In this document: positions 1 through 45,343 of the stretch, one piece after another
Layout: each line of letters opens with the position of its first letter
Numbering within the stretch: the first letter of the stretch is position 1
From: a virus
Taxonomy: Duplodnaviria > Heunggongvirae > Uroviricota > Caudoviricetes
Virus record (IMG/VR): IMGVR_UViG_2541047918_000003
Direction: 5' to 3' (one strand)
DNA length: 47,928 nt
Notes under the pieces: model-generated
Database searches by the model: none
What the model was told of the DNA's origin: nothing
What the model saw: only the letters and a program-made list of their open reading frames with translations
Made by a program: the position numbers and the translations under genes

Positions 1-249
1 ATGCGTATTGAAATCTGCATAGCCAAAGAAAAAATGACTAAAATGCCAACCGGTGCTGTGGATGCGTTAAAGGAAGAATTAACCCGACGCATCAGTAAAC
101 GTTATGACGATGTAGAGGTGATCGTAAAAGCCACCAGCAACGATGGCCTTTCTGTTACGCGCACCGCCGATAAAGATTCAGCTAAAACTTTTGTTCAGGA
201 AACTCTGAAAGATACCTGGGAGTCTGCTGACGAGTGGTTTGTTCACTAA
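1..249 (+). CDS. DinI-like damage-inducible protein family
   Basis: 82 aa; ends ...[16 protein letters not shown], closely resembling the DinI C-terminus as recalled; ATG at position 1. Confidence 0.7.
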
Positions 250-3777: not shown

Positions 3778-3801
3778 AAAAAAGGCGCCATTTCTGGCGC
3801 C
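3778..3801 (-). terminator. intrinsic terminator after J
   Basis: Perfect 7-bp stem GGCGCCA/TGGCGCC with loop, followed by T6 on the minus strand. Confidence 0.55.
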
Positions 3802-14596: not shown

Positions 14597-14622
14597 AAAT
14601 AAAAAACCCGCCAGCGGCGGGT
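14597..14622 (-). terminator. terminator-like hairpin upstream of V
   Basis: ACCCGCC/GGCGGGT stem followed by T6ATTTT on the minus strand. Confidence 0.4.
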
Positions 14623-16125: not shown

Positions 16126-16149
16126 ATAAAAAAACCGCGTCGGCGCGGT
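16126..16149 (-). terminator. intrinsic terminator after the major capsid gene
   Basis: ACCGCG CCGA CGCGGT followed by T7 on the minus strand; a second perfect 8-bp hairpin (16104-16125) lies between it and the connector RBS. Confidence 0.5.
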
Positions 16150-25008: not shown

Positions 25009-25014
25009 GCATGT

Positions 25015-25044
25015 AAAAAGGCCCCAACACATGTGCGTGGGGCC
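25015..25044 (-). terminator. minus-strand intrinsic terminator downstream of the tRNA cluster
   Basis: GGCCCCA/TGGGGCC stem followed by T5 on the minus strand. Confidence 0.45.
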
Positions 25045-25283
25045 TGAGAGTATACATGGTTTCAGTCAACTGCATGGTGCCGGGTGCCTCCCGGTGAATT
25101 CAGTACCAGCACCTGAATCCGCGATTATCCCATATACCTACTCGCTGATTGCCCCTCCGCACAGGGGGATTCACCATGCCAGTTTCTTTTAACAAACTCC
25201 CCGCAAAACAGACAACTGTCAACCGTCTGAATTGTGAGACATTTAAAAAAAGGCCCGCAAAAGCGAGCCGGGAAAAATAAGTC

Positions 25284-25360
25284 TGGCGCGTTGTACTGGA
25301 TTCGAACCAGTGACCGATTGCTTAGAAGGCAATTGCTCTGTCCGGTTGAGCTAACAACGC
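25284..25360 (-). tRNA. argO: tRNA-Arg (anticodon UCU)
   Basis: 77 nt; cloverleaf; anticodon loop CTTCTAA; T-arm GGTTCGAATCC; encoded CCA. Confidence 0.85.
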
Positions 25361-25373
25361 AGGGTACAGATAA

Positions 25374-25450
25374 TGGACCGCCATCGAGGACTCGAACCCC
25401 GCGCAACCAGCTTCGAAGGCTGGCGCTCTATCCTGATGAGCTAATGGCGG
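25374..25450 (-). tRNA. argN: tRNA-Arg (anticodon UCG)
   Basis: About 77 nt; anticodon loop CTTCGAA; T-arm TTCGAGT; CCA end; exact 5' end uncertain by 1 nt. Confidence 0.75.
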
Positions 25451-25457
25451 TATGTGA

Positions 25458-25533
25458 TGGTGGCCCTTGCTGGATTTGAACCAGCGACCTGGCGATTATG
25501 AGTCGCTCGCTCTCACCACTGAGCTAAAGGGCC
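25458..25533 (-). tRNA. ileZ: tRNA-Ile2 (anticodon CAU, lysidine type; would also score as Met)
   Basis: 76 nt GGCCCTTTAGCTCAGTGG...CTCATAA...GGTTCAAATCC...GGGCCACCA; close to E. coli ileX as recalled. Confidence 0.85.
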
Positions 25534-25910: not shown

Positions 25911-25933
25911 AAAAAAACCCGCTCGCGGCGGGT
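25911..25933 (-). terminator. late terminator tR' downstream of Q
   Basis: ACCCGC CGCGA GCGGGT followed by T7 on the minus strand, about 70 nt after the Q stop. Confidence 0.6.
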
Positions 25934-30003: not shown

Positions 30004-30930
30004 TCAGAATGTCAATTTGTTACTGGATTTACCGAATTTGTCAGACATGGCTCCCAGGCCAGCCAGGACATCGACCTGTCGCTGTCGCCCACCTCCGTGA
30101 GCGGCTGGCTGTTGCCAGTAATCTTCGAAGTGACGATCGGGTCCAAAGAACGTCGCAGCCTGCTTCACGAACTGTGTGCCGGTATTTCCTGTAGCACGTA
30201 CCCAGGCGGCATACCGCTTCACGCCATCAAGCATGGTCTCCGGTTTTATTCCCTCCCTGATACGGGCTTTCCAGGCTTTGAAGGCTGCTGATTTGGAATT
30301 GCCACCAGCACGTTTGGGATATTCCTGCCAGGCCTGTTCAAATTCCGGTGAATATTCCTGTCTGGCAGAACGCGCTGGTGCAGACGCGTCAGCGGATGCG
30401 CCAATATCTTGCGGTTCATGTTTTGAATTTACTGGTGGTTCATGTTTTAAACCTTGTGGATCTGGAGTCAGATTCTGAAGGGTCAAACGCGTATTTTTGC
30501 CAGAATCTGAAGGGTCAAACACGCCTGAACATACAGATTCTGACGGTTCAGATTTTGAAGGTTCAGAATCTGAAGGGTCACGTAATACTGAAAGTCTGCG
30601 CTGCTGTTTCAGTTCTGCAACCTTATCCCGCTCAGTTCTGGCAAGCTGCTCAAGCCGATCAGCATTCAGATGATAAAGATTGGACGTATTACGGTTACCT
30701 TTGCGGCGTGACTGACGCGTCAGCCAGCCATCAGCCTCCAGTTCGGAGATTGCCGTTCTGACTGTACTTTCTCCCAATCCAAGCTGTCGACATATGGTTT
30801 CAACACCCGGGTAGCACACCCCGTCATCATTCGAATAATCAGCCAGGCGCGCCATAATCATCAGTTTTGCACCTTTGACGCCATATGCTGCGCATGCATC
30901 CCAGACATTACCGAGGATCTTGCTACTCAT
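30004..30930 (-). CDS. replication initiator (O-like) with internal origin iterons
   Basis: 308 aa; N-terminal winged-helix-like region; low-complexity linker encoded by the iterons; heads the replication operon. Confidence 0.7.
   Translation of the reverse strand: MSSKILGNVWDACAAYGVKGAKLMIMARLADYSNDDGVCYPGVETICRQLGLGESTVRTAISELEADGWLTRQSRRKGNRNTSNLYHLNADRLEQLARTERDKVAELKQQRRLSVLRDPSDSEPSKSEPSESVCSGVFDPSDSGKNTRLTLQNLTPDPQGLKHEPPVNSKHEPQDIGASADASAPARSARQEYSPEFEQAWQEYPKRAGGNSKSAAFKAWKARIREGIKPETMLDGVKRYAAWVRATGNTGTQFVKQAATFFGPDRHFEDYWQQPAAHGGGRQRQVDVLAGLGAMSDKFGKSSNKLTF
30468..30580. repeat. origin iterons inside the initiator gene
   Basis: Five copies of a CAGAWTCTGAAGGGTCA-like 17-20-bp motif; a nearby GGTTCATGTTTT pair at 30410-30450. 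Confidence 0.6.
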
Positions 30931-31151: not shown

Positions 31152-31342
31152 GGACGCACCTCCGCCGTAGTTACGTATTTAACCGGGCTACCTTTCATTG
31201 AGATGGTTTCACACATCTCTGCCGCTTTCAGTTCCGCTGTTTTTCTGGATTTATAGCGACGGTGCCAGACAGATACATCCGTGCGAACTGATACATCGTT
31301 TCTGTATTCCGTAGTGGAGATGATGATTTCGTAACTAATCAT
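31148..31342 (-). CDS. hypothetical small protein (64 aa)
   Basis: Strong AAGGAGG RBS; ATGA overlaps with both neighbours. Confidence 0.45.
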   Translation of the reverse strand: MISYEIIISTTEYRNDVSVRTDVSVWHRRYKSRKTAELKAAEMCETISMKGSPVKYVTTAEVRP

Positions 31343-32205
31343 GGGCGAACCTCCTTGTCAGAACCATTCAGCCTAGAATCAACAAGTGCAGCGCCAAAAA
31401 CAGCATCACCAACACGGTCGTACAGTTTGCTAGCCAGCGGAGATTCAACGGCCTTAAGCATTGGATAAAGCTGGCTTGTCCAGATTTGATGGATTTCACG
31501 CAAATGCAGGTATACGCCTCTGGCGTTTCGTGCGACAGCTGACATATCAGACGCATCGGCACCTGATAAACTCTTCTCCATCAGGTTAAAGGCGTTGATG
31601 TATGCCTCTTTGAACCGGGCAGCACGTTTACCCGTGAAACCCATAGCAAGAAATGCAAAACCGTCTCGTGTGATTTGATAGCAAGGGAGCTTGCGTGTAC
31701 CGCCGTTCGGTTGATTTACCGAAATCGATGTCTCCGCAAAATTGCGGGCACAAAACTCTGGAGAACAATCCAAAATGCGAATCTTTTTCAGAACATCGTC
31801 ATGACGTTTAGAGAAGAAGTCAGCAACAGCCAAAGAAGATGTAACAGCCTGACCATCAACGATGGCAATTTCAGGTTGAGAGAGGGTTGGGAGAGTAGTC
31901 ATAGTGACAGCCCCGGTAGTCAGTTTTTTAGAAAACTCACCACATGGGACGCCAATCACAGAGGTGGTGAGACGTACAGGGTTGGCGTTACCGGAGACTA
32001 CCGAACCCGGCCCGACCGAAGTCGGCCCTGTACGCCCCACCATAATTTGGGCGTAGCAATGCTCATGACACGAAAAAACCGCATGAGCGCGGTTATGCTC
32101 AGTAATCAATTTCAGGACGCCAATCCCGGCACCCGCTTTATAAGGTGCGGAGACAGTGTAACGTCCCGAAATTGCAGAATCAATATTTGGTCTTGAAATG
32201 ATCAT
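31339..32205 (-). CDS. Rha-family phage regulatory protein; start uncertain (alternative ATG at 31902)
   Basis: Central motif AIVDGQAVTSSLAVADFFSKRHDDVLKKIR; no strong RBS at any candidate start. Confidence 0.55.
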   Translation of the reverse strand: MIISRPNIDSAISGRYTVSAPYKAGAGIGVLKLITEHNRAHAVFSCHEHCYAQIMVGRTGPTSVGPGSVVSGNANPVRLTTSVIGVPCGEFSKKLTTGAVTMTTLPTLSQPEIAIVDGQAVTSSLAVADFFSKRHDDVLKKIRILDCSPEFCARNFAETSISVNQPNGGTRKLPCYQITRDGFAFLAMGFTGKRAARFKEAYINAFNLMEKSLSGADASDMSAVARNARGVYLHLREIHQIWTSQLYPMLKAVESPLASKLYDRVGDAVFGAALVDSRLNGSDKEVRP

Positions 32206-32228
32206 ATAGCTGCTGATATCTTTAGAAC

Positions 32229-32314
32229 TGTTCTTGGATGTTTCGGAGCCGTTTTATGCGAAACAGCTCCCCGTTATTGATGTTGAGTGAGCCGGGTTAC
32301 TCCCGGCTTTTTTT
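32229..32314 (+). ncRNA. candidate OOP-like antisense RNA
   Basis: Plus-strand terminator GCCGGG TTACT CCCGGC plus T7 (32291-32314) in a region of minus-strand genes; possible TTGAAA-N18-TATCTT promoter about 85 nt upstream. Confidence 0.3.
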
Positions 32315-33021
32315 CACCGCTGCCAACCAATAACCTGAAATAACCCCATTTTCGGGTGATACCAGCGAGTCCCTCGCGGTTCTGCTTCCTCCATAACCCG
32401 ATAAAAAGCAGCCATAAACGGTTCCACAGCAACAATTGCGCGACGTGACAACAATCCGTCCGGCGTCATGAACTCATGGGTGTCTGTAGGAATCTGATAG
32501 GCGTTCACCAGATTGCGGCATTTATCATCTGACAAACCGGTTTTTGCTTTCAGTTGGCGATATCCGGCATAGCCCTCACGAATAGTGCCCTTTTTAATTT
32601 GCTCGACTGTTTCAGCAACGTGGCTGACTTTTTCTTCCACCTGAGTGATCCGTTTCTGCTGACGAACTGCTTCAAGAGCCATCGCGGCAACCATTTCGAT
32701 TTCGCTCATTGGCTTACGGATCTGTTCTTCCAGTTCGCGCCAGCGATCTACCAGGCGAGCAGTGAATTCAGGACAGAGCTGTGCGACGACAATGATGCTG
32801 TCGCGCTTACCTTGTTCTCCTTCAAACAGGTAATGCTCATATTGAACTTTAAAACCTAAGTTATTGATTCTTTCGGAAACCTCAATTTGAGGAGACCGGA
32901 CAACGCCACCTTTGGCTAATGTTTCAATAGTGCGTTTCACATTGTCATGACGTTTACCCACCAGCTCTGCAATTTCAACGCTGGTCATGGATGCTTTGCC
33001 GTTAAAAATTGCGGTGTTCAT
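32314..33021 (-). CDS. Rha-family phage regulatory protein, antirepressor-like
   Basis: 235 aa; N-terminal motif TSVEIAELVGKRHDNVKRTIETL; AGGAGA RBS. Confidence 0.65.
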   Translation of the reverse strand: MNTAIFNGKASMTSVEIAELVGKRHDNVKRTIETLAKGGVVRSPQIEVSERINNLGFKVQYEHYLFEGEQGKRDSIIVVAQLCPEFTARLVDRWRELEEQIRKPMSEIEMVAAMALEAVRQQKRITQVEEKVSHVAETVEQIKKGTIREGYAGYRQLKAKTGLSDDKCRNLVNAYQIPTDTHEFMTPDGLLSRRAIVAVEPFMAAFYRVMEEAEPRGTRWYHPKMGLFQVIGWQR

Positions 33022-33245
33022 TGTTGGTCTCCTGTGGGCTTGTCATCTTCTGTATTCGCTAGACTTGGGTGTGTATATGGAATGCTCGTATCCAGATGAC
33101 AAAGAATGGCAACATCCTCCGGAACACCTCGCGTTTTCCACTTTCCAACACCTTGACTGCCACGAGGCCTTCCTTTCTTTGGGAACCTGCGACCAATAGC
33201 GGCATTGGTTTTAAATTGAATTTTTAATATTTCATAAAGGGTCAT
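33018..33245 (-). CDS. possible Cro-position early regulator
   Basis: 75-aa basic ORF, first on the minus strand after the operator region; weak RBS; no clear helix-turn-helix. Confidence 0.3.
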   Translation of the reverse strand: MTLYEILKIQFKTNAAIGRRFPKKGRPRGSQGVGKWKTRGVPEDVAILCHLDTSIPYTHPSLANTEDDKPTGDQQ

Positions 33246-33356: not shown

Positions 33357-34013
33357 ATGAAGTCTTTAGGTGAACGTCTCATCAACGCACGGCAAAAAGC
33401 TGGGTTAACACAAGATGCGTTGGCTAAAAAAGCTGGGGTCACCAGAGTTGCAATCAGTAAAGCCGAGCAAGGCCTTACAAAAAGTTTCAACGGTGACACC
33501 CTTTTTAAAGTTGCAGCTGCACTGCAGTGTTCACCGCAGTGGCTTCAGAACGGAGATGAAAAAGATAAGCATTGGGAAAATAATGTTAAGAGCTGCCCAC
33601 AGAGAGACACAGCATACTCTTACCCTGTAATTAACTGGGTTCAGGCAGGATTATTCGCAACTTCTGGTGATGACTACAACATGTATGATCAGGATAATTG
33701 GAGGCATTCTGTAAAATACGCTGGTGAGAGGGGGTTCTGGCTGGAAGTGCACGGAGACTCAATGACTTCGCCCGTAGGAATAACATTTCCTGAAGGAATG
33801 TCGATCCTTGTCAACCCAGATAAAGAAGTTTTTTCAGGGTGTTACGTCATCGCCAGAAAAAAATCTACCAATGAAGCAACATTCAAAAAATATATTTCTG
33901 AAATGGGAAAGGCGTTTCTAAAGCCCCTTAATCCACAATATCCAATCATAGAAATGGACAATGATTGCGAAATAGTAGGTGTTGTGGTTGATGCCAGGTG
34001 GGATATTTTCTAA
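33357..34013 (+). CDS. cI: CI-like repressor (XRE helix-turn-helix plus S24 LexA-like peptidase)
   Basis: MKSLGERLINARQKAGLTQDALAKKAGV... helix-turn-helix; C-terminal peptidase-like domain; AGGAGA RBS. Confidence 0.85.
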   Translation: MKSLGERLINARQKAGLTQDALAKKAGVTRVAISKAEQGLTKSFNGDTLFKVAAALQCSPQWLQNGDEKDKHWENNVKSCPQRDTAYSYPVINWVQAGLFATSGDDYNMYDQDNWRHSVKYAGERGFWLEVHGDSMTSPVGITFPEGMSILVNPDKEVFSGCYVIARKKSTNEATFKKYISEMGKAFLKPLNPQYPIIEMDNDCEIVGVVVDARWDIF

Positions 34014-39033: not shown

Positions 39034-40347
39034 ATGGATAAAGTCAAATATCCAACAGGCGTCGAAAACCACGGCGGCACATTACGCATCTGGTTTAATT
39101 TTAAAGGTAAACGTGTCAGGGAAAATCTTGGTGTCCCTGACACTGCCAAGAACAGGAAGATCGCCGGGGAACTGCGGACATCAGTATGTTTTGCCATCCG
39201 CACAGGAAGCTTTGATTATGCTGCACAGTTCCCTGACTCCCCCAACCTTCAGGCTTTTGGGGTAAGTAAAAAAGAAATTACGGTGAAGGAACTTGAAGAA
39301 AAGTGGCTGGATCTGAAACGAATGGAAATCTCTGCAAATGCATTCAATCGCTATGAATCCGTTGCAAGAACGATGGTTCCGAAAATTGGAGGCAGTAAAC
39401 TGGTGTCATCGGTAACCAAAGAGGAATTGCTGTATATCAGGAAAGATTTGCTGACCGGGTATCAGAATTCAACGAAAAACAAAGCAGCAGCAAAAGGACG
39501 GAGCGTCGTTACTGTAAATTATTACATGACGACAATCGCTGGAATGTTTCAGTTTGCTGCAGATCACGGTTACTTAGAAGCAAATCCCTTCCAGGGAATT
39601 AAGCCTCTTAAAAGAGCCAGGGCAGAGCCAGATCCGCTAACTCGTGACGAATTTATTCGCCTGATAGATGCTTGCCGACATCAGCAGACGAAAAACCTGT
39701 GGTCATTGGCTGTGTACACAGGAATGCGTCACGGTGAACTGGTCTCCCTGGCCTGGGAAGATATCGATCTGAAGGCAGGAACAATTACCATCAGGCGCAA
39801 TTATACGAAACTTGGTGAGTTCACTCTACCGAAAACTGAAGCAAGCACAAACAGGGTTGTGCACCTTATCCAGCCCGCTATCAGTGTCCTGAAAAATCAG
39901 GCTGAAATGACAAGACTGGGTAAGCAGTACAACATCAAGGTGCAACTACGTGAATATGGACGTTCAGTGAACCATGAATGTACTTTCGTGTTTAACCCTC
40001 AAGTGGTTAGAAAAAGCGAACAGGTAGGTTTTGTCTACAAAGTCGATTCTGTAGGTGACTCATGGGAAACAGCCATTAAGCGTGCAGGGATCAGGCATCG
40101 AAAGGCATACCAGTCACGACACACTTATGCGTGCTGGTCATTATCTGCCGGAGCAAACCCAAGCTTCATTGCCAGCCAGATGGGCCATGCAAGTGCCCAG
40201 ATGGTATTCAATGTATACGGAGCATGGATGACTGACAGCAATGCAGAACAGATCGCAATGCTGAATCAGAAGCTGACAGATTATGTCCCAATGATGCCCC
40301 ATAGTCACCAAAGTGACACCAGAGGCTTATTAAAATCAGTAAGTTAA
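39034..40347 (+). CDS. int: tyrosine integrase
   Basis: 437 aa; conserved Arg, His-x-x-Arg (SRHTYACW) and C-terminal Tyr; GGAGG RBS; stop abuts the host gene remnant. Confidence 0.9.
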   Translation: MDKVKYPTGVENHGGTLRIWFNFKGKRVRENLGVPDTAKNRKIAGELRTSVCFAIRTGSFDYAAQFPDSPNLQAFGVSKKEITVKELEEKWLDLKRMEISANAFNRYESVARTMVPKIGGSKLVSSVTKEELLYIRKDLLTGYQNSTKNKAAAKGRSVVTVNYYMTTIAGMFQFAADHGYLEANPFQGIKPLKRARAEPDPLTRDEFIRLIDACRHQQTKNLWSLAVYTGMRHGELVSLAWEDIDLKAGTITIRRNYTKLGEFTLPKTEASTNRVVHLIQPAISVLKNQAEMTRLGKQYNIKVQLREYGRSVNHECTFVFNPQVVRKSEQVGFVYKVDSVGDSWETAIKRAGIRHRKAYQSRHTYACWSLSAGANPSFIASQMGHASAQMVFNVYGAWMTDSNAEQIAMLNQKLTDYVPMMPHSHQSDTRGLLKSVS

Positions 40348-40825: not shown

Positions 40826-42349
40826 ATGAAACGTGCCATTTCTTACATCAGGTTTTCATCTGAGAAGCAATCCCGAGGTGATTCATTACGCCGACAGTCT
40901 AAGATGGTTAATGACTGGCTTAAGGCTCATCCTGAGTACTACCTTGACCAAGATTTATCTTTTCGTGATTTGGGGGTGAGTGGGTTCACTGGTAAGCACT
41001 TGAAAGGTGGCTTAGGTGACTTTTTAACCGCTATCGAGAAAGGGCTTGTTAAAGCTGGTGATACGCTCTTGATAGAATCTCTTGACCGTCTGTCACGTCA
41101 AGATGTAGACCAAGCAAGTGAGCTACTCAGAAACATTCTTCGCTCTGGTGTAGATGTGGTCACCTTGTCCGATGGTGAACATTACACAAAGGAAAGCTTA
41201 AAAGACCCGTTAGCTCTGATTAAAAGCATTTTGATAATGCAGCGGTCGCATGAGGAGAGTTTGCGTAAATCTGAACGTATCCAAGCTGCATGGGATGCAA
41301 AGAAAGAAGCTGCTAAAGCCGGTATCAAGATTTATAAGCGTTGTCCTGCATGGCTTAAGCTTAATGATGACCGTAAGACCTTCTCTGTGATACCTGAGAA
41401 GGTAGAAACTGTGAAGAGGTGCTTTCAATTACGGTTAGAGGGTAAGTCTATTTGGGAGATTGTCAGGACTCTTAATGATGAAGGTCACCAGACACTTAAC
41501 CAGTACAAAGCAGGTAAGTTTGGTCAAACCTCAGTGCAAGACCTTCTGAAAAATCGCTCTGTAATTGGTTACTTCACACCTAAAGGCTGTGAGGAGATAG
41601 CTGGTTATTTCCCCCCTATCATCCCTGAGACTGATTTCTACAAAGTCCAGCAACTATCATATTCTCGTTATGGAAGAAAGCCTGCTTCAGATAAACCATT
41701 GAGTGTGAATCTTTTCAAAGGTGTTATCCGTTGTTCTGAATGTGGTCATGCTTTGATTATCACAGGCTTTAGCGATACAAGAAACGGGATTTATCGTTGT
41801 CCTCTTCGTAATGAAAACCGTTGTAGTGCTAAAGGACTTTCACGTAAGCAAACCGATGGTACATTGCTTGCCCTGCTATCCCGTATAGACCGATTTGATA
41901 GCGATATGACGAATACCATAGACACACTGAAGCTACACCGTGAACACATCTCAAGCAATATTGAAAAGCTGGTACAGCTATCACTTGAAATTGAAGACTT
42001 GTCCGCTATTACCAGCAAACTAAAACAGTTAAAAGGTGAGCTATCACAGGTTGATGCGGATATCGAGAAGGAGACACAACGCCTTAAATCTATTGATGTT
42101 GGTTGTTTGTCTGATTGTGACTTGACTACAAAGGCGGGAAGGATTGAAGCACAACTGATAATCAAAAGTGCTGTTAAAGAGGTCATTTTAAATACTGCTA
42201 AACGTCGCTGTAAAGTAACTTTTCACAATAGTAAGTCAATCACCCTACCAATAACAGAAACCCCCTCAGAGGACGTTACAGAGGCTATACAGTCGCTTTC
42301 TGAAGTCACTGAGAGGGGGTTGATAGATGTTGATGAGGTTATCATATAG
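40826..42349 (+). CDS. large serine recombinase (integrase)
   Basis: 507 aa; N-terminal resolvase-type domain MKRAISYIRFSSEKQ; Cys-containing recombinase domain and coiled coil; GAGGTG RBS. Confidence 0.9.
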   Translation: MKRAISYIRFSSEKQSRGDSLRRQSKMVNDWLKAHPEYYLDQDLSFRDLGVSGFTGKHLKGGLGDFLTAIEKGLVKAGDTLLIESLDRLSRQDVDQASELLRNILRSGVDVVTLSDGEHYTKESLKDPLALIKSILIMQRSHEESLRKSERIQAAWDAKKEAAKAGIKIYKRCPAWLKLNDDRKTFSVIPEKVETVKRCFQLRLEGKSIWEIVRTLNDEGHQTLNQYKAGKFGQTSVQDLLKNRSVIGYFTPKGCEEIAGYFPPIIPETDFYKVQQLSYSRYGRKPASDKPLSVNLFKGVIRCSECGHALIITGFSDTRNGIYRCPLRNENRCSAKGLSRKQTDGTLLALLSRIDRFDSDMTNTIDTLKLHREHISSNIEKLVQLSLEIEDLSAITSKLKQLKGELSQVDADIEKETQRLKSIDVGCLSDCDLTTKAGRIEAQLIIKSAVKEVILNTAKRRCKVTFHNSKSITLPITETPSEDVTEAIQSLSEVTERGLIDVDEVII

Positions 42350-42363
42350 TTGAGATTCTATCG

Positions 42364-43137
42364 TCAGAATCGCTTGTTAGGATTCACAGAAAATTTCTTC
42401 AAAGTACTACCTGTACCAGCATTATTAAGCACCTTTGAAGCTTGCGCATTAGCGGCATCTGAGAAGGTGCTTTTTCCATTCTCAACTTTGACACTTTTAC
42501 CACAATTGATACGGGCTTGAAGTTGCTCATTAGTGAGTTCACTCGTAGAGCGATTATATAGCTCCTGACACAGCAACATACCATTACCTAGACTTGTCGT
42601 AGTGTTACCAGTGTTCTTCTTAGAAGTTGCACCACCATCATTCGTGGTAGCAGTCTTTCCAGTTGCAGCAGAAATATCAGTCTGACCAACAATAGCTTTG
42701 AAGTTAATTTCCTGAAAAGTTAGCTGGATTCTTAGACCGTTTGAAATCCCCACATCTTTAGAGGCTTTAAAACTCGTAATAATGGAATCGTCAATTTTAA
42801 TTCCGTCTTTACAGATGACCGAAATAATCTGTTTCTGGTCACGCCAGCTTTCAAGAGTGTCGATGAAGTTTTCTACTAATTGACCCTGACGAGTTAATAA
42901 TAAGCTTCCTTCATAGCCAACTACAACGACACCACTAATAGTGATTGTTCTGGGTGCTCTTTGCACATTATCTGTAACGGTTTGTCCTGATTGCATGTTC
43001 TGTGTAGTCACCTGCATAGGACTATCAAATTCCATGTTTTCAGTTGCTGATAAGGTTAAGAAGGCATCTACATTATCTCTTAAGTGGAAATAGATGCCGT
43101 CTTTGCCACTATATTTGATTTGGTTAGAGTAAATCAT
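42364..43137 (-). CDS. hypothetical protein downstream of the tape measure (possible distal tail protein)
   Basis: 257 aa from the ATG at 43137 with AAGGGGAA upstream; Ser/Thr/Asn-rich. Confidence 0.45.
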
Positions 43138-43211
43138 TAAATTCCCCTTTGATTTCAAAGGCTTAGTGTATTTTAATCATTTTTAACCAAGCCTTTGATA
43201 TATAAGTGTTT

Positions 43212-43288
43212 TCTCTGTTAAGCGTGTTGTACGTAAATTCTATTTTTCAGTGTGGGTATTAGCTTTACAGATTTCACGTAGCATTCGA
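43212..43288. repeat. copy A of a ~77-bp direct repeat
   Basis: Shares CTCTGTTAAGCGTG, TACGTAAA and AGATTTCACGTAGCA with copy B at 45357-45433. Confidence 0.6.
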
Positions 43289-43294
43289 CTATTA

Positions 43295-45343
43295 TCAATC
43301 ATCTTCTGGGAATGATGAACTTAATAGCGTAGCTTCTGCGTATTGGTCGTAGATATTACTGCTAAAGGTCATAAAGCTGGTTTCATCTGGTTTAATGGCA
43401 ACTTCACCACCAAGTGAAACTTTCACAGGCTCCTGAATACGTTTGCTCAAAGCACTAATTTCATCTCTCAGGCTTTGGATATCCGTATTCGTTAATGCCG
43501 CATCTTGTCTCATGGTGATTAATTCTGGATGCTGGAAGTTAGCAAGATTCATAGCTGCACTATTAAACCAACCTTTCACATCGTCCATAGTAAATACTGG
43601 CTTAAGTCCAGATTCTTTAGCTAACTCTGGTAATTTAGCTTGTGCTTCCATTCGTTCAGGTGTAGAGGCTAGTCTTTCATAACCTGCATAGAGAGCGCTA
43701 CCAGCTAATAGCATATTCCCAAGATTCAGTCTTGATGGTTTCCCATTCTTTCTATTCACGTTATCCGCTGTAGTATCAGCAACCTGACCTAATCTTGTGA
43801 TAGCAGTCATAAGCCCGTAAATACTTCTGGTTACACCAACAACTTTATTTACAGCAATAACACCAGCCAAGACTTTTAAACTATTAATCAAGCCAGAACC
43901 TAAAGCATCAACAACTTTCTTTTGTTCATCGGTTAAACCACGATAAGCTAATGTCACCTCATCAAAGAACGCTCGCACCTTGTAACTAATATCGGCCAGA
44001 CTATCGACACCATGTGACATATCAGTCATCAAGCTACCAAGAGATTCACCAAGACTTTTACCACTTCCACCAAGAGCGTTTAAAAGCGTTGTTAAGCTTC
44101 TTGTAAAATCTTGCAGACCACTTTCAGAACCTCTGAAGATACTATCAAGCGTGGTATTCCAAGAGTTTTTCAGGTTCCCTAATTGTGCCTGTGTACTTTC
44201 TGAAATAGCTTTCCAGCCACCTTTAGCGGTGATTTGTCTATTCAGTTCCTGAGTGACCTTCTGAAGAGTATCGGCAGATTTTAAAGCCCCCTTCTTCATG
44301 GCATCAAATAATTCCTGTTCAGTCTTTCCGGTTGCTTTAGCGAATACCTGAACCATACCAGGAACAGCTTCAGCTAGTTGCCCCTTAAGCTCTTCAGCCA
44401 TAACCTGACCCTTACCAGCCATCTGTGATAATGCTGTCAGTGCTCGCTTAATCTCTTCTTCACTTCGACCCATCAGACGAGAATAGCCAATCATACTTCT
44501 AAAAAGTTCTTCAGAACCTTGAATACCCATAGACTCTTTAGCTGAAGCACCGAAACCAGCAAACTGTGATTGCAGTTCAGCGATATCTAAACCCGTTGTT
44601 TGAGCTAATGACTTTGTGAACTCTTTTACCTGACCTGCATCTTTATCAAATACGAAATCAATTGAACGTTCAGCACTTGCACGCTGTAAACCAATTTCCA
44701 TTACTCGCTGATAAGCTGCCAAAGCACTTTGAAAAGTGTAAATAGCCGTACCCGCTTTAATTGCACTTGAAGCTAGTACATCTAAACCATTTGAAGCATT
44801 TTCACTGTGATTATTTTTGCTGGTGGTCTTGTTAAACTTAGAAAGTGTTTCACGTAGATTTTGATTTAACTTTGCTAACTCACGATTAAAAGCTTCGTTT
44901 CCAAGTGTCTTGGATTTACTACTTAATGCGTAAAACTGACTCTTAATGTATTTCTCGACAATTGGGTTAAGACCTTTCAGCTTAGACATATTCGCTGAAT
45001 AAGCCGCTGTGATTGCTCTGTTGCCGCTAATTCGTGGCTGTCTTGGCTGTCTAAGTGGCTTTAAAGTATCCTCAATTTCCGTTTTAATCTTAAACGCTCT
45101 AGTGTTTTTAAGACGCTGCTCAATCTTGTCAAAGGTCTTATTAAACTTCCTTTCAAGTTGCCCTAAAGAACTTGTCAGATTGCTGTCAAGTTGCTTGGTA
45201 TCGACCTTAAACGCTCTATTCAAATTACGTTCAATTCTTTGTGCTGACTGCAAAGCTGCCTTTTCAACTCTTTGCAAGCCCTTAATAACGTTCTCGCTGA
45301 AGCCTAGCTCAACGATAAAACTATCAACTTTAAATTGTGCCAT
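43295..45343 (-). CDS. phage tail tape measure-like protein
   Basis: 682 aa; central motif RALTALSQMAGKGQVMAEELKGQLAEAVPGMVQVFA; long coiled-coil segments; GAGGTGA RBS. Confidence 0.7.
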   Translation of the reverse strand: MAQFKVDSFIVELGFSENVIKGLQRVEKAALQSAQRIERNLNRAFKVDTKQLDSNLTSSLGQLERKFNKTFDKIEQRLKNTRAFKIKTEIEDTLKPLRQPRQPRISGNRAITAAYSANMSKLKGLNPIVEKYIKSQFYALSSKSKTLGNEAFNRELAKLNQNLRETLSKFNKTTSKNNHSENASNGLDVLASSAIKAGTAIYTFQSALAAYQRVMEIGLQRASAERSIDFVFDKDAGQVKEFTKSLAQTTGLDIAELQSQFAGFGASAKESMGIQGSEELFRSMIGYSRLMGRSEEEIKRALTALSQMAGKGQVMAEELKGQLAEAVPGMVQVFAKATGKTEQELFDAMKKGALKSADTLQKVTQELNRQITAKGGWKAISESTQAQLGNLKNSWNTTLDSIFRGSESGLQDFTRSLTTLLNALGGSGKSLGESLGSLMTDMSHGVDSLADISYKVRAFFDEVTLAYRGLTDEQKKVVDALGSGLINSLKVLAGVIAVNKVVGVTRSIYGLMTAITRLGQVADTTADNVNRKNGKPSRLNLGNMLLAGSALYAGYERLASTPERMEAQAKLPELAKESGLKPVFTMDDVKGWFNSAAMNLANFQHPELITMRQDAALTNTDIQSLRDEISALSKRIQEPVKVSLGGEVAIKPDETSFMTFSSNIYDQYAEATLLSSSFPEDD

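What the first reader, a model, noticed from the sequence alone, without database searches (positions are those of the whole stretch)
32229..32314. Plus-strand terminator inside the early-right operon suggests an OOP-like antisense RNA
A clean plus-strand terminator (GCCGGG TTACT CCCGGC then T7, 32291-32314) lies between two minus-strand Rha-family genes. A possible TTGAAA-N18-TATCTT promoter sits about 85 nt upstream. Lambda makes the short antisense OOP RNA in the equivalent position to down-regulate cII. Here an antisense RNA would overlap the 3' end of the upstream Rha-family gene and the intergenic region.
Basis: partly seen in the sequence, partly recalled or inferred. Interest (0 to 1): 0.45.

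Follow-up and report, generated by a model that had tools for sequence, protein, structure and literature searches.

The report
Candidate antisense small RNA gene in prophage

Summary
GCCGGG-TTACT-CCCGGC plus T7 (32291-32314, + strand) is the only top-grade intrinsic terminator on the + strand of the 48-kb window (0 found in 100 shuffles). TTGAAA-N18-TGaTATCTT (32193-32222) would start an RNA of about 85-88 nt.

The element occurs in about 4% of complete E. coli genomes and about 92 IMG/VR contigs. It always sits between the same Rha-family gene and the isrK promoter, in three alleles. The promoter hexamers, a 10-nt block (GTTCTTGGAT), GTTGAGYGA and the terminator are kept. The middle hairpin has a different sequence in each allele but still forms a hairpin.

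- The RNA overlaps only the stop codon of the upstream gene.
- It shows no detectable sequence similarity to lambda OOP.
- There is no cII homologue, and the site is about 1.3 kb from the replication gene.
- The "gap" between the two Rha genes holds IsrK (32148..32072) and a C4-type RNA (32047..31960) on the minus strand. This is a P1 immI / Gifsy-1 type antirepressor switch. The candidate promoter lies back-to-back with the isrK promoter.

Best reading: a real, unannotated, short plus-strand RNA that is antisense only to PR read-through transcripts. Its terminator also shields the upstream gene and cro from antisense transcription. Expression and function are untested.

The parts
32193..32198 (+). 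-35-like hexamer TTGAAA of the candidate plus-strand promoter
   Evidence: Scan hit. Present in 25 of 26 unique promoter-to-terminator sequences across three alleles; one sequence has TTGGAA.
32214..32222 (+). Extended -10, TGaTATCTT (TG at 32214-32215, hexamer at 32217-32222)
   Evidence: Alleles 2 and 3 have TGgTATTTT at the same 18-nt spacing.
32227..32314 (+). Predicted non-coding RNA of about 85-88 nt. The start is inferred 5-8 nt after the -10 and the end lies in the T tract.
   Evidence: Inferred from the promoter and terminator. Fold -30.4 kcal/mol, z = -3.25. No ORF is conserved among the alleles (read from the sequences). No Rfam family reaches its threshold on this strand.
32230..32239 (+). 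Invariant block GTTCTTGGAT near the 5' end of the RNA
   Evidence: 10/10 identical between all three alleles, while the adjacent middle segment is 31-33% identical between allele 1 and alleles 2/3.
32245..32270 (.). Middle hairpin GGAGC-C-GTTTT-ATGC-GAAAC-A-GCTCC. It has a different sequence in each allele but still forms a hairpin.
   Evidence: 4 pairs changed on both sides. The strand of function is not resolved: allele 1 is more stable as minus-strand RNA, alleles 2 and 3 as plus-strand RNA.
32282..32290 (+). Conserved linker GTTGAGTGA (GTTGAGCGA in alleles 2 and 3). It may pair with the GTTC of the 5' block.
32291..32307 (+). Terminator hairpin GCCGGG-TTACT-CCCGGC
   Evidence: The stem is kept in all 22 distinct RNAs. 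The 7th pair is T/T here, T-A in most other sequences, C-G in one and mismatched in three; there is one G-U variant.
32308..32314 (+). T7 tract. The last T is the complement of the first base counted of the upstream gene's stop codon.
   Evidence: The tract has 6-8 T in every family member.
32314..33021 (-). Upstream gene A: a Rha-family DNA-binding protein of 235 aa. Its start overlaps the end of the cro-like gene.
   Evidence: Pfam Phage_pRha 40.2 bits; annotation ('Roi', 'DNA-binding protein').
32155..32183 (-). isrK promoter (inferred): TTGATT (32183..32178), N17, TACACT (32160..32155), 7 nt before the IsrK 5' end. It lies back-to-back with the plus-strand promoter, with 9 bp between the two -35 hexamers.
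   Evidence: Read against the Rfam IsrK 5' end. This is the only part of 32149-32330 shared with many other phages.
32072..32148 (-). IsrK-type RNA with its own intrinsic terminator (32094..32077)
   Evidence: Rfam RF01394, 59.3 bits against a gathering score of 50; terminator.
31960..32047 (-). C4-type antisense RNA (P1/P7 c4, P4 CI, STnc1160 class)
   Evidence: Rfam RF01695, 82.3 bits against a gathering score of 45. There is also a weak c4-a1b1 hit at 32161..32109.
31339..31902 (-). Downstream Rha-domain gene in the antirepressor position (AnrP position). The reading frame is open upstream to ATG 32043 and to 32205.
   Evidence: Pfam Phage_pRha 92.7 bits at aa 122-211 of the 288-aa ORF; ORF list.

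Best explanation
The 125-bp spacer between gene A and the isrK promoter encodes an independent, unannotated, non-coding plus-strand RNA of about 85-95 nt.

Proposed anatomy:
- It starts at a sigma-70 promoter with an extended -10 that lies back-to-back with the isrK promoter.
- It has a conserved 5' block, an allele-specific hairpin and a conserved linker.
- It ends at a strong intrinsic terminator whose T tract abuts the stop codon of gene A.

Proposed action (inferred, not shown):
- The RNA starts upstream of the isrK transcription start, so it is complementary only to transcripts that come from PR and read through gene A into the IsrK/C4/antirepressor module and the replication genes.
- I propose it acts in cis or in trans on such read-through transcripts of the same allele. 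Two routes are possible: pairing followed by RNase III-type cleavage in the intercistronic spacer, or convergent-transcription interference over about 85 bp.
- The effect would be to damp PR-driven entry into the antirepressor and replication genes.
- The terminator keeps this antisense transcription out of gene A, cro and the immunity region.

Shown here: the sequence elements, their conservation, the structure-preserving replacement of the hairpin, and the genomic context. Inferred: that the promoter fires, the RNA ends, and the whole mode of action.
For: - Terminator quality and uniqueness on the + strand.
- Promoter hexamers, TG and 18-nt spacing are kept in three alleles, while the remaining promoter-region positions match at only 14/24 and 16/24.
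- The spacer is 56-66% identical between alleles. The adjacent 3' two-thirds of gene A is mostly 94-100% identical and the isrK promoter about 90%.
- Inside the RNA, GTTCTTGGAT is 10/10 identical, GTTGAGYGA 8-9/9 and the terminator 14-16 of 17-18. The middle segment is 31-33% identical between allele 1 and alleles 2/3, yet folds into a hairpin in every allele.
- On a hand-fitted alignment 97.5% of cells pair, 5 pairs change on both sides, and 0 of 500 shuffles reach the observed pairing or covariation score. Slid controls pair at 34-51%.
- Folds have z = -3.3 to -4.9.
- No ORF is conserved among the alleles.
- The element occurs only in this context: 237 of 5426 complete E. coli genomes and about 92 IMG/VR contigs.
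- Swapping of a stem-loop between conserved islands is, from my own knowledge, what is seen in specificity-determining antisense RNAs such as P1/P7 c4 and plasmid copy-control RNAs.
Against: - There is no expression data of any kind. No paper or supplement searched mentions the sequence. PGAP annotates nothing here.
- Only three independent lineages exist, and the structural alignment was fitted by hand, so the covariation figures lean towards the structure.
- G-U versus A-C asymmetry does not settle the strand. The allele 1 hairpin is more stable as minus-strand RNA (-15.1 against -11.8 kcal/mol), and two allele 1 variants keep pairing only on the minus strand. Alleles 2 and 3 favour the plus strand.
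- A purely cis-antisense role does not explain why a 10-nt block is invariant.
- The promoter match (9/12) is no better than many chance sites in the region.
- The -35 region could instead be conserved as upstream sequence of the divergent isrK promoter.
Confidence: 0.45

Rival explanations
1. The RNA is real but acts in trans as an Hfq-type base-pairing small RNA. The invariant 5' block (GUUCUUGGAU) would be the seed, acting on a host or phage mRNA elsewhere. Its antisense position would be incidental.
For: - The 10-nt block near the 5' end is invariant in an otherwise replaced body.
- The layout is a hairpin followed by a terminator with 6-8 U, with an AU-rich stretch before the terminator.
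- Prophage early and late regions of pathogenic E. coli are known to encode many Hfq-bound small RNAs (PMC4104026, PMC13502914).
Against: - No convincing target was found in the window. The best non-self 14-mer matches have 2 mismatches and lie inside coding regions. Three matches were found against 0.58 expected, one of them the site itself.
- There is no complementarity to the IsrK/C4 transcript beyond shuffles.
- In the predicted folds, GUUC of the block pairs with the conserved linker GAGY, so the block may be structural rather than a free seed.
- The host genome could not be scanned.
Confidence: 0.2
2. Only the terminator matters. It is an insulator that stops any plus-strand (antisense) transcription from running into gene A, cro and the repressor gene. 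Such transcription could arise from divergent firing at the isrK promoter region or from sites further left. The short RNA would be a by-product with no function of its own.
For: - The terminator and T tract are the most strictly kept parts.
- It sits exactly at the stop codon of gene A.
- It is the only strong plus-strand terminator in 48 kb.
- IsrK is reported as expressed in Salmonella lysogens (PMC7067206, PMC4825925), so its promoter region is active when PR is off.
Against: - It does not explain the invariant GTTCTTGGAT and GTTGAGYGA blocks, or a hairpin that is kept in structure while its sequence is replaced.
- Other phages place the isrK promoter directly against a coding gene with no such terminator (L019-L023), so the module does not generally need an insulator.
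Confidence: 0.2
3. The conserved elements work on the minus strand, as part of the PR read-through RNA. Possibilities are a 3' stabilising hairpin for the cro-gene A message, a processing site, or a nut-like boxA/boxB antitermination site ahead of the IsrK terminator. The plus-strand terminator appearance would be secondary.
For: - This is the first non-coding stretch downstream of PR and lies just before the first minus-strand intrinsic terminator, the position of nutR in lambda.
- Minus-strand UCGCUCAAC in alleles 2 and 3 shares CGCUC with lambda boxA CGCUCUUA (my own knowledge of boxA).
- The allele 1 hairpin and its variants pair better on the minus strand.
- Allele-specific hairpins would fit co-evolution with a binding protein.
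Against: - There is no second (nutL-like) copy of the hairpin anywhere in the window.
- No N-like gene is annotated, and an HTH protein occupies the position next to the repressor.
- The loops (AUAAA, ACAAA(A), CGCAUA) do not fit the GNRA-like boxB pentaloop.
- On the minus strand the G+C hairpin is preceded by A7 and followed by UCACUCAAC. This explains neither the strict 6-8 T run nor the conserved promoter hexamers.
Confidence: 0.08

Closest known systems
Lambda OOP RNA (also OOP of Stx phages and OOP-BTP1)
   Same: A short (77 nt) antisense RNA inside the PR operon. It is made from its own constitutive promoter, consists of a 5' stem-loop plus an intrinsic terminator, and is transcribed towards cro and cI (sequence and fold; PMC12197685, PMC7067206).
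   Different: - OOP overlaps 55 nt of the cII coding end and sits directly upstream of O.
- Here the overlap with a coding region is only the stop codon. The neighbouring gene is Rha-family, not cII.
- The site is about 1.3 kb from the replication gene and adjoins the isrK promoter.
- No detectable sequence similarity.
P22 sar RNA (immI region)
   Same: A small (68-69 nt) antisense RNA with its own promoter, placed inside an operon that controls an antirepressor (PMC12197685).
   Different: sar covers the ant ribosome-binding site. This RNA lies upstream of the isrK start and is not complementary to the transcript made from the isrK promoter. It shows no complementarity to that transcript beyond chance.
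IsrK / STnc1160 / orf45 / anrP locus of Gifsy-1 and the P1/P7 c4-icd-ant (immI) and P4 CI systems
   Same: This is the immediate neighbour, not the finding itself. IsrK and C4 pass their Rfam thresholds, and an AUG at +106..108 matches the orf45 start reported in PMC4825925.
   Different: No plus-strand partner upstream of the isrK promoter is described for Gifsy-1 in the sections read. Five other phage contexts examined lack the spacer altogether.
Prophage antisense RNAs that exclude superinfecting relatives (BTP1 STnc6030, P22 sas)
   Same: An antisense RNA expressed from a prophage that could act in trans on an incoming phage carrying the same sequence (PMC7067206).
   Different: Those RNAs lie in late or sieB regions and have demonstrated phenotypes. 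Here the idea rests only on cassette-like allelism.

Membership tests
Lambda OOP-type antisense RNA | Antisense overlap with the 3' coding end of a cII-type activator gene | tested here: not met
   The overlap is only the stop codon 32316..32314. The gene has a Phage_pRha domain and no CII family hit.
Lambda OOP-type antisense RNA | Own promoter and intrinsic terminator giving an RNA of about 80 nt, oriented against PR transcription | tested here: met
   Promoter-like site at 32193-32222 and terminator at 32291-32314 predict 85-88 nt. This is sequence evidence only.
Lambda OOP-type antisense RNA | Position directly upstream of the replication initiator gene | tested here: not met
   IsrK, C4, a Rha gene and two small ORFs lie between it and the O-like gene at 30930..30004.
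Lambda OOP-type antisense RNA | Sequence similarity to lambda OOP | tested here: not met
   Global alignment score 3.0. Shuffles give a mean of -6.4 and a maximum of 4.5. The similarity is confined to the T tract.
Lambda OOP-type antisense RNA | RNase III-dependent cleavage of the sense transcript | not testable with these tools
   Needs an rnc mutant and RNA analysis.
Intrinsic (Rho-independent) terminator | G+C-rich stem, short loop, then a U tract on the transcribed strand | tested here: met
   6-8 bp stem, 4-6 nt loop (5 nt here) and T6-8 in all 22 variants. It is the only such site on the + strand, with none in 100 shuffles. The minus-strand version lacks a U tract.
Sigma-70 promoter with extended -10 | -35 and -10 hexamers at 16-18 nt spacing with TGn | tested here: met
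   TTGAAA, N18, TGaTATCTT scores 9/12 and is conserved across alleles. Activity was not tested.
Hfq-type trans-acting small RNA | Terminator hairpin with a long U tail, and a conserved accessible seed with an identifiable target | tested here: inconclusive
   The U tail and a conserved block are present. The block is partly paired in the predicted folds and no target was found in the window. Hfq binding is not testable here.
P22 sar-type antisense RNA | Complementary to the ribosome-binding site of the antirepressor message | tested here: not met
   The RNA maps upstream of the IsrK 5' end at 32148. Its pairing with the isrK-promoter transcript is no better than shuffles.
Lambdoid nut site (boxA/boxB), minus strand | boxA plus a boxB hairpin, a second copy downstream of PL, and an N-type protein | tested here: not met
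   There is no second copy of the hairpin and no N-like gene in the annotation. The only boxA resemblance is CGCUC in two alleles.
Any Rfam family (plus strand, 32187-32317) | Score at or above the family's gathering threshold | tested here: not met
   The best hit is sroD at 24.5 bits against a threshold of 50, and it covers the terminator only.

The most novel reading that the evidence does not exclude
The plus-strand RNA is an allele-specific, RNA-level immunity or exclusion determinant. It would be made in the lysogen and pair with the gene A-isrK spacer of the early PR transcript of any phage carrying the same allele, whether its own prophage on induction or a superinfecting relative. This would cut off entry into the antirepressor and replication genes. 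The three cassette-like alleles would be escape variants. That would be a second, RNA-based specificity layer stacked on an IsrK/C4 switch.
Probability: 0.1. Interest if true: 0.65.

Novelty: new member of a known kind. Interest (0 to 1): 0.38.

Why it matters
If the RNA is made, it adds a third RNA player to a locus that already carries IsrK and a C4-type RNA controlling an antirepressor-like gene. It sits at the point where PR transcription must pass to reach the replication genes. The element is found in Stx2-converting phages and in about 4% of complete E. coli genomes. It could therefore influence spontaneous induction, and with it toxin-phage release, or cross-talk between co-resident prophages.

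There is also a practical point for annotation. The 288-aa 'Rha family' and 'ash family' CDSs called here run across two RNA genes and hide the real regulatory architecture.

Tried and rejected
- **Rfam.** The gathering search on the window and an E-value search on 31700-32500 gave nothing on the plus strand above threshold. They did reveal IsrK and C4 on the minus strand.
- **Similarity to lambda OOP.** None.
- **Trans targets.** A 14-mer search and a duplex scan of the whole window found only the cis complement and chance-level sites. Duplex scans against the isrK-promoter transcript in three alleles were no better than shuffles: 27/30, 13/30 and 8/30 shuffles did at least as well. An earlier version of that script timed out.
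- **nutR idea.** No second hairpin copy and no N gene.
- **Repressor or LexA operator in the promoter.** By eye there is only a weak CTTTAG resemblance to the cI-cro intergenic repeats, and it is not conserved between alleles.
- **Small ORF.** The 31-aa ORF at 32238-32333 runs through the terminator and is not conserved.
- **Strand of function from G-U versus A-C.** Mixed result.
- **MAFFT plus RNAalifold on unpadded sequences.** This gave a meaningless consensus because the hairpins of different alleles do not align by sequence. I replaced it with a hand-fitted, N-padded alignment.
- **Gene A homologues in other genera.** They are followed directly by an overlapping ORF with no hairpin, so the element is not a feature of the gene family.
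- **More alleles.** Three different anchor patterns in IMG/VR returned the same roughly 92 contigs.
- **Literature.** Sequence strings were not found in full texts or in the Tree 2014 supplements. No supplements are held for the Sakai dRNA-seq/Term-seq paper. HnrS and the EcOnc anti-sRNAs are late-region RNAs of different size and sequence.
- **Not attempted.** I did not locate the element in strains Sakai or EDL933.

Full report
**What is at the coordinates.** The plus strand reads GCCGGG (32291-32296), TTACT, CCCGGC (32302-32307), then seven T (32308-32314). The consensus scan lists it with 8 pairs, 6 of them G-C. That scan is lax: it found 15 terminator-like sites against 9.1 expected. I therefore ran a strict scan requiring a perfect 6-bp stem with at least 5 G-C pairs, a loop of 3-8, and at least 7 T in the next 8 bases. 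This is the only hit on the plus strand of the 47,928-base window. The minus strand has four distinct sites, at 25933, 16149, 14622 and 3801. One hundred shuffles gave none. On the minus strand the same hairpin is preceded by A7 and followed by UCACUCAAC, so it is a one-way terminator. The last T of the tract is part of the stop codon (32316..32314) of the minus-strand gene 33021..32314. The promoter-like site TTGAAA (32193-32198), N18, TATCTT (32217-32222) is real. It carries a TG at 32214-32215, which is an extended -10. As a bare consensus match it is unremarkable: 14 such sites were found in 9 kb against 12.0 expected.

The 410 bases between the two Rha-domain genes are not empty. Rfam places an IsrK RNA at 32148..32072 (59.3 bits, threshold 50) and a C4-type antisense RNA at 32047..31960 (82.3 bits, threshold 45). 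Both are on the minus strand. There is also a weak hit to the C4 target sites a1/b1 at 32161..32109. IsrK carries its own minus-strand terminator at 32094..32077. This is the architecture described for Gifsy-1: the isrK promoter, IsrK with a leaky terminator, the processed C4/CI-like RNA STnc1160, orf45, then the antirepressor-like anrP (PMC4825925). It is the same kind of switch as P1/P7 c4-icd-ant. Reading the minus strand upstream of the IsrK 5' end gives TTGATT (32183..32178), N17, TACACT (32160..32155), 7 nt before position 32148. This promoter assignment is my inference. The candidate plus-strand promoter is therefore back-to-back with the isrK promoter, with 9 bp between the two -35 hexamers. 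RefSeq annotates none of this. PGAP calls one 288-aa 'Rha family phage regulatory protein' from ATG 32205, running across both RNA genes. Residues 16-111 of that ORF hit Pfam Phage_ASH, and the real Rha domain is at residues 122-211.

**Setting.** The window is a lambdoid E. coli prophage. It carries:
- a LexA/S24-type repressor at 33357-34013 (+);
- a cro-like gene at 33245..33018 (-) that overlaps the start of gene A (Phage_pRha, 235 aa);
- then the spacer, IsrK, C4, the second Rha gene and two small ORFs;
- then an O-like gene (30930..30004), a DnaC-like gene, a helicase and Q.

No cII homologue and no N-like gene are annotated.

**Conservation and module boundaries.** The stretch 32149-32330 is found at 80% coverage or more in 237 of 5426 complete E. 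coli genomes. It is 100% identical in several Stx2a and Stx2d phages and in phage ASU11, and 99.4% identical in PhiR49_2. Only 32153-32188, the isrK promoter, is shared with many other phages such as phiP27, ST64B, SfV and numerous Stx phages. In those phages the promoter abuts a coding gene (DUF4222, an Ant-like gene) with no spacer and no hairpin. Homologues of gene A in Yersinia, Providencia, Proteus, Atlantibacter and others are followed by an overlapping ORF, again with no hairpin. Three IMG/VR scans with different anchors returned the same roughly 92 contigs, always with the arrangement gene A, spacer, isrK promoter. The spacer is therefore a distinct mosaic unit of about 125 bp found only at this junction.

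**Three alleles.** The unit exists in three forms: allele 1 (this window), allele 2 (for example L003) and allele 3 (for example L070). Together they give 22 distinct RNA sequences.
- Between alleles the 3' two-thirds of gene A is mostly 94-100% identical, the isrK promoter about 90%, and the spacer only 56-66%.
- In the promoter region, -35, TG and -10 match at 13 of 14 positions and the 18-nt spacing is unchanged. The other positions match at 14/24 and 16/24 (p = 0.025 and 0.07).
- Within the predicted RNA, GTTCTTGGAT is 10/10 identical, GTTGAGYGA 8-9/9 and the terminator 14-16 of 17-18.
- The middle segment is 31-33% identical between allele 1 and alleles 2/3.
- Even so, each allele forms a hairpin there: GGAGC-C-GUUUU / GAAAC-A-GCUCC; GGC-UU-ACUUC / GAAGU-U-GCC; and GGC-CUGC / GCAG-UU-GCC.
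- The T tract has 6-8 T in every member. The seventh terminator pair is T/T here, T-A in most other sequences, C-G in one and mismatched in three.

**Structure counts.** I built a hand-fitted, N-padded alignment and proposed three helices. On it, 97.5% of cells pair, five pairs change on both sides, and 0 of 500 shuffles reach the observed pairing or covariation score. Versions with the partners slid by 1-3 columns pair at 34-51%. Two caveats apply: the alignment was fitted to the structure, and there are effectively three lineages. Predicted folds of the three RNAs have z-scores of -3.3 to -4.9. No ORF is shared by the alleles.

**Which strand.** Watson-Crick covariation cannot tell the strands apart, so I compared G-U against A-C pairs. 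The result is mixed. The allele 1 hairpin is more stable as minus-strand RNA (-15.1 against -11.8 kcal/mol), and two allele 1 variants keep pairing only there. The allele 2 and 3 hairpins, one allele 2 variant and one terminator variant favour the plus strand. The case for the plus strand therefore rests on three things: the strictly kept T tract after the G+C stem, the conserved promoter elements at fixed spacing, and the lack of any U tract on the minus strand.

**Mechanism.** The predicted start (32227-32230) lies upstream of the IsrK start (32148) on the other strand. The RNA is therefore not complementary to transcripts from the isrK promoter. It is complementary only to PR transcripts that read through gene A. 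Its overlap with a coding region is the stop codon alone. My best reading (confidence 0.45) is a real short antisense RNA that acts on that read-through message, by pairing and cleavage or by convergent-transcription interference. Its terminator would also protect gene A, cro and the immunity region from antisense transcription. Replacement of the hairpin as a cassette between conserved islands is what one sees in specificity-determining antisense RNAs.

**Rivals.**
- A trans-acting Hfq-type RNA using the invariant block as its seed (0.2). I found no target in the window and no complementarity to the IsrK/C4 transcript beyond shuffles. The block is partly paired in the predicted folds.
- A terminator that is only an insulator (0.2). 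This leaves the conserved blocks unexplained.
- A minus-strand element such as a nut-like site or a 3' stabiliser (0.08). There is no second hairpin copy and no N gene.

**Comparison with known systems.** The element works like OOP only in the general sense of a short terminated antisense RNA inside the PR operon. It fails the membership tests for coding overlap, cII neighbour, position next to O and sequence similarity. It is not sar-like, because it does not cover an antirepressor ribosome-binding site. No Rfam family matches. The EHEC prophage small RNAs I could check are late-region RNAs of other sizes: AsxR, AgvB, EcOnc03 and HnrS. A 2025 review table of phage small RNAs lists nothing at this position. 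Sequence strings from the element occur in no searched full text or held supplement.

**Verdict.** This is a credible but unvalidated new member of the class of phage antisense or small RNAs. It sits next to a known IsrK/C4 switch that current annotation hides. Interest is moderate: expression is untested, and the kind of element is familiar.

Noticed in passing
window 31339-32205 (-): PGAP's 288-aa 'Rha family phage regulatory protein' runs straight across Rfam IsrK (32148..32072) and C4 (32047..31960). Its residues 16-111 hit Pfam Phage_ASH (PF10554), and 'ash family protein' CDSs in related loci start at the same ATG. Either the region is dual-coding, or this protein family is built on translated RNA genes.
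   Followed up: partly
window 32041-32043 (-): An ATG at +106..108 from the IsrK 5' end matches the position of the first orf45 start (A107) reported for Gifsy-1. Here that frame continues without a stop into the Rha domain (MTTLPTL at 31902), so orf45 and the antirepressor-like gene appear fused.
   Followed up: no
window 32107-32119 and 32162-32174: A 13-nt inverted repeat, 92% complementary. The right arm lies in the isrK promoter spacer, so it is transcribed only in PR read-through RNA, where it could pair with IsrK and change its fold.
   Followed up: no
window 25009-25533 (-): STnc100 sRNA (140 bits) at 25208..25009 and three tRNA genes at 25287-25533 (Ile, Arg and Arg in the RefSeq annotation), downstream of the Q antiterminator gene.
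   Followed up: no
window 3784-3801, 14606-14622, 16134-16149, 25917-25933 (-): These are the only other top-grade intrinsic terminators in the window, and all are on the minus strand.
   Followed up: no
window 40826-45343: Beyond the integrase (39034-40347) lies part of a second element: a serine-type recombinase family gene (+), and baseplate and tape-measure genes (-).
   Followed up: no
L006-L018 (downstream of the match end): In Yersinia, Providencia, Proteus, Trabulsiella, Atlantibacter, Budvicia and Citrobacter, homologues of gene A are followed at once by an overlapping or coupled ORF. The spacer and RNA unit is therefore specific to E. coli-type prophages that join gene A to the isrK module.
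   Followed up: yes
L019 (E. coli 10159) 732-911: In some prophages a DUF4222 gene occupies the place of the spacer between the gene A homologue and the isrK promoter, and its 3' end overlaps the promoter's -35 region.
   Followed up: partly
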